64,000 nucleotides of DNA. Origin: a virus. The stretch lies in the IMG/VR virus record IMGVR_UViG_3300045973_000169, positions 13,000 to 76,999 of that record; one strand, given 5' to 3'. The first letter of the stretch is position 1. Every line of letters begins with the position of its first letter. Below are positions 23,979 through 24,969 of this stretch, piece after piece. Made by a program: the position numbers and the translations under genes. Below the pieces are notes generated by a model. That model saw only the letters and a list, made by a program, of their open reading frames with translations, did no database searches and was not told the origin of the DNA.

Positions 23979-24010
23979 ACCAGCCGAGCCTATGCTCTAC
24001 CTAGTAGGAT

Positions 24011-24035
24011 TCTTTCTGGGATTTGAACCCAGCAG
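24011..24035 (-). other. orphan tRNA T-arm-like motif on the minus strand
   Basis: Reverse complement reads CTGGG-TTCAAAT-CCCAG; no matching acceptor 5' strand found. Confidence 0.25.
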
Positions 24036-24337
24036 AAGATACAAAGTGATTGAGTAAGCTCAAATAGGATTCATGAAGGTACTGCAGTGCATCATGATTA
24101 ACTGGTTGCGAATTAGTAGAGAGGGACTGTTGCTATTACGATTGAGCTTTACGTGTATAGATGCTTGTCCCTCTAGTTTTTGGGCACATGACGAAATGGT
24201 AAACGTGAGAGGAAAGTATATACTTAGTATTTATTTAATAAGTGGATTAATTGCCCATAAGTTAATTATTAGAAAAGTATATGACTACCTCTTGGTGATG
24301 ATGGTGACGGCTAGCCTTTATTATGTCATCTAGCCTT

Positions 24338-24365
24338 ACAGGTTCGAGTCCTGGGGTGCCTACCA
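24338..24365 (+). other. tRNA 3'-half-like element (T-arm, acceptor strand, ACCA)
   Basis: ACAGG-TTCGAGT-CCTGG GGTGCCT A CCA; the only possible 5' partner GGGCAC is 160 nt upstream. Confidence 0.3.
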
Positions 24366-24421
24366 ATAATAAATTTAAGAGAGATTACAGCAAACAAAAA
24401 CTTTTTTTAGACAAAAAACGA

Positions 24422-24447
24422 TAGGGTTCGATTCCCCTAAGCCGGGT
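24422..24447 (+). other. tRNA T-arm/acceptor-like element
   Basis: TAGGG-TTCGATTC-CCTA AGCCGGG T; no 5' acceptor partner. Confidence 0.25.
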
Positions 24448-24969
24448 GGTGGTGAGATTTCTCTCTGTATTAAATTAGTAGATATATAAGGATCCATTCA
24501 GCAACTAAAAACTTTTTTAATTGATAAAAAAACAAAAAGTGATCCTGTCTTAAAGATATATAAGGAAGAGTTCAGCAATCCAAAAAACAATCAAATGCTA
24601 ACTTGAAAATGTTAAAAATCTTCCTGTTTTAATTAAGGTTGTAGGTTATCCAGTATCAAAACCTTCTGCGAATAGATTTTATACGACTTGGCGATTAGGA
24701 AACTTAAGCGTTACTTTAGAGTATCGAAAGTCCTAGTCCAAATCCAATTAATACGATGACAGCTATTTTAATAATATACCTTGGCACTAGGCGACAAAGG
24801 ACACTGTTATTAATTTAGGGCGATGTGATTATTAATTGAACAACAGTATGCCAATTCATACTGTAATTAATACTGTACGAGCAGTATAAAAGCAGATTGG
24901 TCTCTACTGCTTAACTGGGGCGAAGGACTCAGCAAAAAATGGAGACTACTTAATTAGTTAAGAGGTATT

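What the first reader, a model, noticed from the sequence alone, without database searches (positions are those of the whole stretch)
23979..24969. ~1-kb non-coding stretch downstream of the Ro-like gene with three orphan tRNA-like T-arm/acceptor elements: candidate Y-RNA-like ncRNAs
Between the vWA/Ro-like gene and bfr there is almost 1 kb without a credible ORF. The only track ORF, 24073-24333, has no RBS and an odd composition. The stretch contains a minus-strand CTGGG-TTCAAAT-CCCAG T-arm at 24011-24035 and a + strand T-arm with acceptor-like strand and ACCA at 24338-24365. It also has a second + strand T-arm/acceptor-like element at 24422-24447, plus an 8-bp AGAGGGAC/GTCCCTCT hairpin at 24120-24185. 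None completes a tRNA. Bacterial Y RNAs (YrlA) are encoded next to rsr and contain exactly such a tRNA-like T-arm/acceptor mimic. A phage Ro + Y-RNA module next to an RNA-repair island would be a coherent system and may be undescribed. Alternatives are split or intron-containing tRNAs, or att-site-like tRNA 3' relics.
Basis: inference. Interest (0 to 1): 0.7.

Follow-up and report, generated by a model that had tools for sequence, protein, structure and literature searches.

The report
Phage Ro-like protein's Y-RNA-like partners

Summary
The sequence features exist at the stated coordinates. GGTTCRANTCC T-loops occur 6 times in the window against 0.1 expected, and no standard tRNA or Rfam Y RNA/YrlA is called in the stretch. 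The upstream gene is DUF2828+DUF7788 by Pfam. Its AlphaFold model (pLDDT 91.6) matches full-length Ro60/TROVE structures, so "Ro-like" holds by fold.

The Y-RNA idea is partly right, but for other elements. The real units are three tandem RNAs (24371-24475, 24482-24555, 24556-24634) and a fourth in the Ro-like gene's leader (22471-22563). All share one module: UAA, a G-closed 6-bp covarying stem, N, U(U/A)CNGCAA, a variable loop, the stem's 3' strand, then UGU. A circularly permuted copy replaces the anticodon arm of a tRNA-shaped RNA at 20765-20884.

The module flanks the Ro-like gene in all 7 metagenomic relatives. By looser criteria it also appears in 8 of 11 sampled known phages, including FelixO1. 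In several relatives and known phages the loop is a YrlA-type permuted tRNA-like domain, with sub-threshold Rfam YrlA hits. Only the third flagged T-arm belongs to a module RNA. The ACCA element is a degenerate tRNA-like gene with a 107-nt insert, and the minus-strand T-arm is a relic.

Verdict: a new variant of the known phage Ro/Y-RNA system. RNA-protein binding is inferred, not shown.

The parts
22602..23978 (+). Ro60-like protein gene (458 aa; Pfam DUF2828 + DUF7788/vWA)
   Evidence: Pfam hits. PHROG 850 'RNA-binding protein'. AlphaFold pLDDT 91.6. Foldseek top hits are Ro60/TROVE (9kop, 1yvr, 9l5y). The MIDAS DxSxS residues D261/S263/S265 are invariant in 59 homologues.
22471..22563 (+). 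Module RNA in the leader of the Ro-like gene: UAA-GACUAG-U-UUCUGCAA ... CUAGUC-UGU. Its loop segment 22529-22544 pairs with 22566-22581, just upstream of the RBS, as a pseudoknot or alternative helix.
   Evidence: Covariance model R1 scores it 42.2 bits. The orthologous copy in L002 has the same stem. The second helix covaries between the window and L002. An equivalent copy lies upstream of the gene in L004, L005, L088 and L089.
24371..24475 (+). Module RNA A: stem GAGAGA/UCUCUC, core UACAGCAA.
   Evidence: R1 scores it 50.6 bits. It falls within a block (24366-24680) that is 80.6% identical to L002 12771-13086. Alignment.
24482..24555 (+). Module RNA B: stem GGAUC/GAUCC, core UUCAGCAA. The loop is a U/A hairpin with a 7-nt loop.
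   Evidence: R1 scores it 40.8 bits. Orthologues are L002 12882-12956 and L087 9696-9767, with a compensatory stem change GGAUC/GAUCC to GAGUC/GACUC. It is the weak Rfam Dicty_Class_I_RNA match, 25.8 bits.
24556..24634 (+). Module RNA C: stem GGAAGA/UCUUCC, core UUCAGCAA. The loop is a short hairpin with an anticodon-loop-like loop, AUGCUAA(C).
   Evidence: R1 scores it 53.0 bits. The inner hairpin and its (A/C)UGCUAA loop recur, with covarying stems, in L002, L087, L086 and mycobacteriophage Snenia.
20765..20884 (+). tRNA-shaped chimera with acceptor, D and T arms. The anticodon arm is replaced by a circularly permuted module (GUCUC-UGUAUAAG-AGAAC-G-UUCGGCAA).
   Evidence: MFE cloverleaf, z = -2.7. 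The RNAalifold consensus with L004 3938-4065, L005 3973-4092 and L005 4093-4226 has compensatory changes in 12 of 20 pairs. ARAGORN -i calls it an 'intron-containing' tRNA.
24182..24365 (+).
   Evidence: MFE pairs the two ends. ARAGORN calls it tRNA-Ile(UAU) with a 107-nt insert at position 31/32, but only at -ps90. It is not found by Rfam tRNA. It has no homologue in relatives and contains no CAGCAA module.
24016..24032 (-). It is followed on the minus strand by a GGUAGAGC D-arm remnant. Most likely a tRNA-gene relic.
   Evidence: Sequence. No acceptor partner is present. Relatives have no minus-strand T-loop after their homologous gene. No homologue is found.
24120..24174 (+). 8-bp inverted repeat with a 39-nt loop, followed by AGUUUUU. 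Possibly a terminator-like hairpin for the Ro-like gene. It is not conserved.
   Evidence: Sequence. It is not called by the terminator scan because the loop exceeds 8 nt. No homologue in relatives.

Best explanation
The window encodes a divergent Ro60-like protein (DUF2828/DUF7788: an alpha-helical ring plus a vWA/MIDAS domain). Around its gene lies a set of small RNAs that play the role of Y RNAs.

Each RNA is built on one module. A 6-bp helix, variable in sequence and always closed by a G-C pair, joins the two ends of the RNA. The 5' strand of the helix runs directly into the single-stranded motif N-U(U/A)CNGCAA, which is (N)ACAGCAA in other phages. The 3' strand is followed by UGU. I propose that this module is the docking site for the Ro-like protein, by analogy with the conserved helix and the GGUCCGA/GNCGAA strand of known Y RNAs.

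The variable loop is the second, 'effector' part. In this clade it imitates parts of tRNA:
- a T-arm in RNA A;
- anticodon-arm-like hairpins in RNAs B and C;
- a complete permuted T-arm/acceptor-hairpin/D-arm (YrlA-type) domain in relatives.

The loop would tether or decoy tRNA-binding enzymes. The copy in the gene's own leader forms a pseudoknot next to the ribosome-binding site and would allow the protein to regulate its own synthesis. The permuted copy in a tRNA-shaped RNA at 20765-20884 gives a version with tRNA-like ends.

Shown: the fold of the protein; the existence, covariation, strand bias and conserved linkage of the module; and the YrlA-type loops in relatives. Inferred: transcription of the RNAs, binding to the protein, the effector function and the autoregulation.
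For: Protein:
- Foldseek top 11 hits are all full-length Ro60/TROVE, E 1e-8 to 6e-6, TM 0.55-0.69. They include the Thermus phage phiLo Ro60.
- The MIDAS residues are invariant.
- Mycobacteriophage homologues are annotated 'Ro-like RNA binding protein'.

Module:
- 23 instances in the window and its relatives carry 15 different stem sequences. The inner helix is 97.8% paired, and 5 of 6 pairs show changes on both sides.
- In a control of 75 chance matches to a near-identical sequence pattern, only 1 had a stem.
- Covariance model R1 hits the 64-kb window, both strands, only at 22471-22563, 24371-24475, 24482-24555 and 24556-24634 (40-53 bits). It also finds three instances that were not in its training set.
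- All instances lie on the gene strand.

Linkage to the gene:
- A module lies within about 500 nt of the Ro-like gene in the window and all 7 independent relatives with 44-59% protein identity.
- Under the strict descriptor, with a background of 17 hits per 989 kb, Snenia has 3 hits in the 380-nt gap after the gene and Listeria LMTA-148 has 3 in the 400-nt gap before it.
- Looser scans, read by eye and with no usable background rate, find copies in Silverleaf, Enterococcus 113, Bacillus PJN02, FelixO1 (4), Campylobacter NCTC12673 (2) and phiN3.

YrlA link:
- Rfam YrlA matches inside module loops: L002 5278-5341 (28 bits, E 2.5e-4), Snenia 3531-3639 (39 bits, E 2.4e-7) and phiN3 544-646 (36 bits).

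Circular permutation:
- tRNA-shaped chimeras carry stem'-CUGU(N)UAAG-stem-N-UUCAGCAA. Their consensus fold has 12 of 20 compensatory pairs. This argues for a folded RNA rather than a linear DNA motif.

Precedent:
- Ro60 plus adjacent Y RNAs are described in bacteria and phages (PMC4201824). phiLo Ro60 binds two phage-encoded Y-like RNAs (PMC12135203).
Against: - No expression or binding data exist for any of these RNAs.
- The window has no YrlA-type domain and no Rfam YrlA or Y_RNA hit.
- The conserved motif (ACAGCAA) is not the GNCGAA/CGAA motif of known bacterial and phage Y RNAs.
- The YrlA hits in relatives are far below Rfam's gathering score of 69.
- The stems of the window clade contain no G-U pair in 138 cells. 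That is unusual for RNA helices and compatible with a DNA-level inverted repeat. One G-U is seen in L088.
- The Ro-like gene is almost always beside tRNA genes. The module could therefore belong to the tRNA array rather than to the protein.
- In L002 the trio lies 5.4 kb from the gene, after terC.
- Milchi and Staphylococcus Alsa_2 showed no module, and the single Vibrio 6E35.1a hit overlaps the gene start and looks false.
- The cross-phage instances outside Snenia and Listeria were found with a relaxed scan and judged by eye. The relaxed descriptor has a high background of 0.12 per kb.
Confidence: 0.55

Rival explanations
1. The modules are cis-acting punctuation of the phage tRNA/early region. 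They would be processing sites for a host or phage RNase, or mobile promoter/terminator-type regulatory cassettes. They would sit near the Ro-like gene only because that gene lives inside tRNA arrays.
For: - The DUF2828 gene is adjacent to tRNA genes in FelixO1, Milchi, Campylobacter NCTC12673, Snenia, Listeria LMTA-148, Enterococcus 113 and the metagenomic relatives.
- The FelixO1 copies sit exactly between annotated tRNAs.
- Many copies end 20-60 nt before a start codon.
- The trio plus its downstream block is shared by the window and L002 in front of different genes, as a mobile cassette would be.
- A sigma70-like site (10 of 12 matches) ends 3 nt before the leader copy.
Against: - tRNA genes far from the Ro-like gene have no module. 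This holds for window 10721, 17828 and 18324, for the tRNAs of L002 and for most of the L004 array.
- Listeria, Campylobacter and the L088/L089 relatives have the copies directly against the Ro-like gene.
- Distances between the conserved halves vary from 12 to 215 nt, and the motif also occurs circularly permuted. Neither fits a linear promoter.
- Promoter-like and terminator-like sites are not enriched.
- Loops that are YrlA-type tRNA mimics are typical of trans-acting Y RNAs.
Confidence: 0.2
2. The stretch is mainly a graveyard of decayed or interrupted tRNA genes, with pseudo-tRNAs, insert-bearing tRNAs and fragments left by recombination or homing-endonuclease activity. It would have no function of its own.
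For: - Elements 1 and 2 of the finding (24016-24032 minus strand; 24182-24365) have no homologue in any relative.
- They fail the standard tRNA searches.
- ARAGORN calls 24182-24365 as tRNA-Ile(UAU) with a 107-nt insert only at a lowered threshold, with mismatches in two stems.
- HNH endonuclease genes lie nearby at 17913-18254 and 20946-21461.
- In relatives, ordinary or odd tRNA genes occupy the same position after the gene.
Against: This cannot explain 24366-24680, which is 80.6% identical to L002. It also cannot explain the covarying module helices or the conservation of the module across distant phage groups. It applies to at most the first 390 nt of the stretch.
Confidence: 0.2
3. The stem plus CAGCAA elements act at the DNA level. 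They would be hairpins or cruciforms serving replication, recombination or a nuclease or recombinase target.
For: - There is no G-U pair in 138 stem cells of the window clade.
- The elements occur in tandem arrays.
- Nearby HNH endonuclease genes are present.
Against: - The elements have a strict orientation on the gene strand in every locus.
- G-U pairs occur in L088's small copy and in the enclosed T and acceptor hairpins.
- The enclosed domains are recognisably tRNA-like RNA folds (YrlA hits).
- The leader copy covaries with a sequence next to the RBS.
Confidence: 0.05

Closest known systems
Bacterial/phage Ro60 (Rsr) with YrlA-type Y RNAs (Chen et al. 2014, PMC4201824; Rfam RF02553)
   Same: - A Ro60-fold protein gene has small RNA genes on the same strand beside it.
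- The RNA ends are joined by a stem next to a short conserved single-stranded motif.
- In relatives and in known phages, the internal domain is a T-arm, acceptor-like hairpin and D-arm in the permuted order typical of YrlA.
- More than one Y-like RNA occurs per locus.
   Different: - The protein is DUF2828/DUF7788, about 460 aa, 11-17% identical to Ro60 in structural alignment, with no TROVE Pfam hit.
- The conserved motif is (N)ACAGCAA, lying after the 5' strand of the stem, not GNCGAA within it.
- The window's own RNAs lack the full tRNA-like domain.
- Up to 4-7 copies occur per locus, in several loop classes.
- A circularly permuted form is embedded in tRNA-shaped RNAs.
- Rfam YrlA scores of 28-39 bits are well under the gathering score of 69.
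Thermus phage phiLo Ro60 with Yrl1/Yrl2 (PMC12135203; PDB 9KOP, 9L5Y)
   Same: - It is a short phage-encoded Ro60 homologue (about 460 aa) and the best structural match to the window protein.
- Phage-encoded Y-like RNAs lie next to its gene, and binding to them was shown experimentally.
- The authors propose recruitment of host PNPase.
   Different: - The phiLo RNAs were picked by a CGAA motif and a stem-bulge-stem shape.
- No ACAGCAA module or tRNA-part mimicry was reported in the passages read.
- Sequence similarity of the proteins is undetectable by phmmer.
Dictyostelium Class I RNAs (Rfam RF01414; PMC7919456)
   Same: - A short terminal stem whose structure, but not sequence, is conserved.
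- An invariant 5' G paired to a 3' C.
- A conserved motif ending in UUACAGCAA directly after the 5' stem strand.
- A variable A/U-rich remainder.
- UG after the 3' strand.
- Window RNA B scores 25.8 bits and L002 5244-5367 scores 21.2 bits on the Rfam model.
   Different: - These are eukaryotic RNAs, reported as restricted to dictyostelids and bound by the RRM protein Rnp1A.
- The scores are below the gathering score of 41.5.
- No link to a Ro-like protein is known.
- The resemblance may be convergent or chance.
Ordinary phage tRNA gene clusters and their stable tRNA-like by-products (e.g. T4 species 1/2 RNAs; recalled from memory, not checked here)
   Same: - Small RNAs with T-arms, acceptor-like ends and encoded CCA are interspersed with tRNA genes.
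- They are probably processed by RNase P/Z.
   Different: - The elements here share a non-tRNA module.
- That module is tied to a Ro-like gene across phage families.

Membership tests
Ro60 / TROVE protein family | Ring of alpha-helical (HEAT-like) repeats followed by a vWA domain, over the full length | tested here: met
   The AlphaFold model has pLDDT 91.6 and pTM 0.90. The Foldseek top 11 PDB hits are all Ro60/TROVE over about 500 columns, TM 0.55-0.69, probability 1.00.
Ro60 / TROVE protein family | Sequence-level membership (Pfam TROVE domain, or a sequence match to solved Ro60 structures) | tested here: not met
   Pfam gives DUF2828, DUF7788 and a weak VWA_2 hit, with no TROVE. phmmer against PDB sequences finds no Ro60 at E<10.
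Ro60 / TROVE protein family | MIDAS motif (DxSxS) in the vWA domain | tested here: met
   D261, S263 and S265 are invariant in 59 homologues, as are T333 and D365.
Ro60 / TROVE protein family | Binds Y RNAs or misfolded RNAs | not testable with these tools
   This needs EMSA, CLIP or pull-down experiments.
YrlA (Rfam RF02553) | Permuted tRNA-like domain: T-arm, acceptor-like hairpin, D-arm | tested here: not met
   In the window there is no YrlA hit at E<10 in 23900-25000 or at E<5 in 17000-25000. RNA A has only a degenerate T-arm. In relatives and known phages the domain is present: L002, L004, L086 (two), Snenia, Silverleaf, Enterococcus 113 and phiN3.
YrlA (Rfam RF02553) | Score at or above the Rfam gathering threshold (69 bits) | tested here: not met
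   The best hits are 39.3 bits (Snenia), 35.9 (phiN3) and 28 (L002). The window has none.
YrlA (Rfam RF02553) | GNCGAA(N)G motif near the 5' end (PMC4201824) | tested here: not met
   The conserved motif is U(U/A)CNGCAA or ACAGCAA. In Snenia the Rfam alignment of the outer stem is poor.
YrlA (Rfam RF02553) | Encoded beside a Ro60 orthologue on the same strand | tested here: met
   This holds in the window and all 7 relatives and in 8 of the 11 sampled known phages. Milchi and Staphylococcus Alsa_2 gave none, and the Vibrio 6E35.1a hit is doubtful.
Y RNA (general architecture) | The 5' and 3' ends form a stem carrying or adjoining a conserved protein-binding motif, and the interior is variable | tested here: met
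   The inner helix is 97.8% paired, with 5 of 6 pairs changed on both sides across 15 stem sequences. AAG, T..C.GCAA and C-TGT are invariant. Loops range from 12 to 215 nt.
tRNA | Complete cloverleaf recognised by ARAGORN or the Rfam tRNA model at default thresholds | tested here: not met
   None of the three T-arm elements is called. 24182-24365 is called only with introns allowed and the threshold lowered to 90%.
Dictyostelium Class I RNA (RF01414) | Score at or above the gathering threshold (41.5 bits) | tested here: not met
   The scores are 25.8, 21.2 and 18.0 bits.

The most novel reading that the evidence does not exclude
The helix + ACAGCAA module would be the specific recognition element of a whole, so far uncharacterised branch of Ro60-like proteins (DUF2828). 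These proteins would assemble with a repertoire of tRNA-part mimics (elbow, T-arm, anticodon arm) encoded inside phage tRNA arrays. The RNPs would act on the tRNA pool during infection, for example as decoys or tethers against host anticodon nucleases or for tRNA quality control or repair. The near-identical architecture of Dictyostelium Class I RNAs would then reflect the same protein-RNA recognition in eukaryotes, giving those orphan RNAs a candidate partner.
Probability: 0.15. Interest if true: 0.85.

Novelty: new variant of a known kind. Interest (0 to 1): 0.62.

Why it matters
- Ro60/Y-RNA particles are known from animals, bacteria and a few phages, but what the tRNA-like part of bacterial Y RNAs does is still open.
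- If this reading is right, a large and common phage protein family would gain a defined RNA partner family with a simple searchable signature. That family is annotated only as DUF2828 or 'RNA-binding protein', gave 711 phage records, and includes FelixO1-like, Listeria P100-like and cluster L mycobacteriophages.
- It would explain unannotated gaps in phage tRNA arrays.
- It would provide tractable model phages for testing how Ro-type RNPs use tRNA mimicry.
- The several loop classes (elbow, T-arm, anticodon-arm mimics) on one docking module would make the 'modular tether' model of Y RNAs directly testable.

Tried and rejected
1. Rfam at gathering and permissive thresholds on the stretch found no Y_RNA, YrlA or tRNA, only a weak Dicty_Class_I match.
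2. DNA similarity to known phages gave no match. The protein-pattern search of IMG/VR found no relatives.
3. My first two collection scans used 7 instead of 6 N between TAAG and TTCAGCAA. They are invalid as searches and spent the only metagenome scan. Their 75 hits were reused as a chance control.
4. The corrected pattern in IMG/VR gave 5 loci, none with a stem. This clade is absent from that collection.
5. The promoter/terminator reading was not supported. Consensus sites are not enriched, and no plus-strand terminator is found.
6. The intron-containing or split tRNA reading for 24182-24365 has only sub-threshold support, a non-canonical insert position (31/32) and no similarity to the relatives' tRNA-Ile(UAU). 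A permuted tRNA or tmRNA reading fails because ARAGORN -m finds nothing.
7. For the minus-strand T-arm I looked for an acceptor partner or a YrlA-type continuation. I found only a D-arm remnant.
8. A very relaxed stem+[AT]CAGCAA descriptor proved too permissive (0.12 hits per kb in controls). I do not use it as a statistic.
9. The 'RNA-repair island' context was not confirmed, because there were no Pfam hits for 17 nearby ORFs.
10. The supplementary phage table of Chen et al. 2014 and the 2020 Annual Review were not available.
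Full report
**1. Checking the observation**

- A minus-strand T-arm, CTGGG-TTCAAAT-CCCAG, lies at 24016-24032.
- A plus-strand T-arm lies at 24339-24353, followed by GGGTGCCT and ACCA (24362-24365).
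- A second plus-strand T-arm-like hairpin lies at 24422-24439. It needs an 8-nt loop or a 3-bp stem.
- The inverted repeat AGAGGGAC/GTCCCTCT lies at 24120-24127 and 24167-24174.

The T-loop consensus GGTTCRANTCC occurs six times in the window against 0.1 expected, so these are tRNA-derived sequences and not chance.

ARAGORN finds only tRNA-Leu (10721) and tRNA-Met (18324) in the window. Rfam at gathering threshold finds only an odd tRNA at 17828-17909. A permissive Rfam search of 23900-25000 gives no tRNA, Y_RNA or YrlA match at E<10.

ORF 24073-24333 has no family hit. The stretch is gene-free, as is the equivalent position in every relative.

**2. The upstream protein**

Pfam assigns DUF2828 + DUF7788, with a weak vWA hit and no TROVE hit. 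PHROGs calls it 'RNA-binding protein'. There is no sequence match to any solved structure.

An AlphaFold model built on 59 homologues is confident, with pLDDT 91.6 and pTM 0.90. Its 11 best PDB matches are all full-length Ro60/TROVE proteins, including the Ro60 of Thermus phage phiLo, with TM 0.55-0.69 and 11-17% identity. Everything below them is a bare vWA domain.

The MIDAS DxSxS residues are invariant. Homologues in mycobacteriophages are already annotated 'Ro-like RNA binding protein'.

The protein is therefore Ro60-like by fold, but not a sequence-level TROVE member.

**3. What is conserved in the non-coding DNA**

The phage is not in the GenBank phage set or IMG/VR. Seven independent metagenomic relatives were fetched, with Ro-like proteins 44-59% identical.

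Only 24366-24680 of the finding has a homologue. It is 80.6% identical to L002 12771-13086. The first 390 nt, holding T-arm 1, the hairpin and the ACCA element, match nothing.

The conserved part is a tandem trio of one repeated architecture:
- (U)UAA
- a 6-bp stem beginning with G
- one nucleotide
- U(U/A)CNGCAA
- a loop of 35-66 nt
- the complementary strand ending in C
- UGU

A fourth copy lies 40 nt upstream of the Ro-like start codon, at 22471-22563.

Across the window and its relatives I collected 23 instances with 15 different stem sequences. The helix is 97.8% paired, and five of its six pairs change on both sides. AAG, T..C.GCAA and C-UGU are invariant.

Because I selected instances partly by their stems, the fair controls are these:
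- Of 75 chance matches to an almost identical sequence pattern in metagenomes, only one had a stem.
- A covariance model built from the trimmed instances hits the 64-kb window, both strands, only at the four sites above (40-53 bits). It also recovers three instances it was not trained on.

**4. Variants of the module**

*Circularly permuted form.* In L004 3938-4065, L005 3973-4092, L005 4093-4226 and window 20765-20884, the motif appears as stem'-CUGU(N)UAAG-stem-N-UUC(A/G)GCA(A/C). It occupies the anticodon-arm position of an otherwise regular cloverleaf. Three of these four end in CCA. The consensus fold has compensatory changes in 12 of 20 pairs. A motif that works both split around a long loop and closed by a short loop is a folded structure, not a linear DNA signal.

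*YrlA-type loops.* In L002 5244, L004 5397, L086 6155 and L086 7001, the loop is a T-arm, a closed acceptor-like hairpin and a D-arm in that order. This is the YrlA arrangement described by Chen et al. (PMC4201824). Rfam YrlA matches L002 5278-5341 at 28 bits, E 2.5e-4.

*The window's three loops.* They are lesser tRNA mimics:
- RNA B has a U/A hairpin with a 7-nt loop.
- RNA C has a short hairpin with loop AUGCUAA(C). Its stem covaries, and the loop (A/C)UGCUAA recurs in L002, L087, L086 and mycobacteriophage Snenia.

*The leader copy.* It has a second helix between its loop (22529-22544) and the sequence just before the RBS (22566-22581). L002 has a different but again complementary pair. 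L088 and L089 have an extra small copy directly before the RBS, and one of these contains a G-U pair.

**5. Linkage to the Ro-like gene beyond this clade**

I sampled 11 known phages with homologues 29-39% identical.

With a strict descriptor whose background is 17 hits per 989 kb:
- Snenia has three copies in the 380-nt gap after the gene.
- Listeria LMTA-148 has three in the 400-nt gap before it.

In Snenia the middle copy encloses the Rfam YrlA hit (39 bits, E 2.4e-7).

By looser scanning and inspection, with no usable background rate:

| Phage | Copies | Note |
|---|---|---|
| Silverleaf | 2 | one YrlA-type |
| Enterococcus 113 | at least 3 | two YrlA-type |
| Bacillus PJN02 | 3 | lie among tRNAs |
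| FelixO1 | 4 | near-identical, between annotated tRNAs |
| Campylobacter NCTC12673 | 2 | directly upstream of the gene |
| phiN3 | 2 | one stem+AACAGCAA pair encloses the YrlA hit; a second small copy lies just upstream of the gene |

Milchi and Staphylococcus Alsa_2 showed none, and one Vibrio hit looks false.

The common denominator is a helix followed by (N)ACAGCAA. The 3' trinucleotide varies between lineages (UGU, AGU, GGU, GAU). Rfam has no family for it. Permissive searches of these loci returned only tRNA, YrlA and ROOL.

**6. Interpretation**

The best reading is that these are the Y-RNA-type partners of the DUF2828 Ro-like protein. The helix+ACAGCAA module would be the protein-docking part, and the variable tRNA-mimicking loop the effector part. 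The leader copy would act as an autoregulatory site.

This rests on analogy with two precedents. Ro60/Y RNA is described in PMC4201824. Phage phiLo Ro60 was shown to bind two phage Y-like RNAs and to form complexes with host PNPase (PMC12135203).

Binding, expression and function are not shown here.

The main rival is that the module belongs to the tRNA array, as a processing or regulatory cassette, rather than to the protein. The two are confounded because the gene nearly always sits beside tRNAs.
- Against the rival: tRNAs distant from the gene lack the module, and in several phages the copies abut the gene itself.
- For caution: the window-clade stems show no G-U pair in 138 cells, and in L002 the trio lies 5.4 kb from the gene.

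**7. The other two flagged elements**

*24182-24365.* Its ends pair as GGGCACA/GGUGCCU, and it has a 3-bp D stem with a GG-containing loop. ARAGORN, with introns allowed and the threshold lowered to 90%, calls it tRNA-Ile(UAU) with a 107-nt insert at position 31/32. Several points argue against a functional intron-bearing tRNA:
- It is not called at default settings, nor by Rfam.
- It has mismatches in two stems.
- It does not resemble the relatives' tRNA-Ile(UAU).
- It has no module and no homologue.

I regard it as a degenerate tRNA-like gene of unknown status.

*The minus-strand T-arm.* It has no acceptor partner. It is flanked by an 8-nt direct repeat and followed by a D-arm remnant. It is most simply a relic.

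*The 8-bp hairpin.* With its U-run it may terminate the Ro-like gene, but it is not conserved.

**8. Novelty**

A phage Ro homologue with adjacent Y-like RNAs is known. What appears new:
- The widespread DUF2828 family is that kind of protein by fold.
- It travels with a distinct, easily recognised RNA module that differs from the GNCGAA/CGAA motif.
- The module comes in multiple loop classes, in tandem arrays, and in a permuted form inside tRNA-shaped RNAs.
- It is present in well-studied phages.

Literature searches found no description of it. I therefore rate it a new variant of a known kind.

**9. A curiosity**

The module has the same architecture as Dictyostelium Class I RNAs, and partly the same sequence. 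Those RNAs have a sequence-variable stem, an invariant 5' G paired to a 3' C, and a motif ending in UUACAGCAA (PMC7919456). The Rfam model scores window RNA B at 25.8 bits. This is below threshold and may be convergence.

Noticed in passing
window 17828-17909 (+): This is the only Rfam-threshold tRNA in the window (33 bits). It has the anticodon loop UUCUAAG, giving anticodon CUA (amber suppressor type), almost no D-arm and a 23-nt variable arm. ARAGORN misses it at default settings. Relatives also carry suppressor-type tRNAs: L005 2692-2766 is called 'tRNA-Pyl(cta)', and phiN3 has an annotated tRNA-TERM. The Ro-like gene itself ends in TAG, at the point where the homologues also end.
   Followed up: partly
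window 18400-18531 (+): A second tRNA-like gene ending in ACCA lies directly after tRNA-Met. It carries a roughly 40-nt insert. ARAGORN calls it tRNA-Leu(gag) with an intron only at the lowered threshold. Its 5' part resembles that of 24182-24365.
   Followed up: partly
window 24482-24555; L002 5244-5367: There are weak matches to the Rfam Dictyostelium Class I RNA model (25.8 and 21.2 bits; gathering score 41.5). The phage module and Class I RNAs share a sequence-variable terminal stem, an invariant G-C closing pair, UUACAGCAA after the 5' strand, a variable A/U-rich interior and UG after the 3' strand.
   Followed up: partly
window 24889-24944 (5' UTR of bfr); L002 13108-13162: A conserved leader structure lies in front of different genes in the two phages. 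It is a hairpin AAGCAG...CUGCUU whose loop (GUCUC in the window, GCCCUC in L002) is complementary to a segment just before the RBS (GAGAC in the window, GAGGGC in L002). This is a covarying pseudoknot candidate, and it also contains CAGCAAAAAA.
   Followed up: no
window 24651-24685; L002 13058-13095; L004 7647-7680; L005 7804-7840: Another conserved non-coding motif, CCAGUGUCAAAAGGnCnUGCGAAAUGAUnUUUU, follows the module RNAs in four phages. Its reverse complement contains TTGACA, so it could be a minus-strand -35 element or an RNA motif.
   Followed up: no
L094 421-972 (Listeria phage LMTA-148): A ROOL RNA match (90 bits; gathering score 99.1) lies about 1 kb upstream of the Ro-like gene. It sits beside tRNAs, with a gene annotated 'tRNA splicing ligase' about 1.3 kb downstream.
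   Followed up: no
L090 3713-3780, 3880-3940, 4334-4400, 4421-4545 (Salmonella phage FelixO1): Four near-identical unannotated elements, CAGA-AGACCR-nnUACAGCAA ... YGGUCU-GGU, fill the gaps between annotated tRNA genes immediately downstream of the FelixO1 Ro-like gene (ORF42).
   Followed up: partly
window 17913-18254 (-) and 20946-21461 (+): Two HNH endonuclease genes (PHROG 2255) sit directly beside tRNA or tRNA-like elements. This may relate to the turnover and fragmentation of tRNA genes in this region.
   Followed up: no
L002 7475-7564 (also L003 3268-3357): The tRNA directly after the relative's Ro-like gene is called by ARAGORN with a four-base anticodon 'tcaa', meaning an 8-nt anticodon loop. 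Rfam tRNA scores it 46 bits. It may be a frameshift-suppressor-type or aberrant tRNA.
   Followed up: no
L004 7550-7628: An uncalled 77-nt tRNA-like sequence lies after the relative's Ro-like gene. It has acceptor GGACUAG/CUAGCCC, an anticodon-like loop AUGUGGC, the T-arm CUCCG-UUCGAGU-CGGAG and an encoded CCA. It shows that odd tRNA-like genes are common at this position.
   Followed up: no
window 24422-24439 (-): On the minus strand, the third T-arm followed by UCGUUUUUUG is scored as an intrinsic-terminator-like site. No minus-strand gene lies upstream of it.
   Followed up: no
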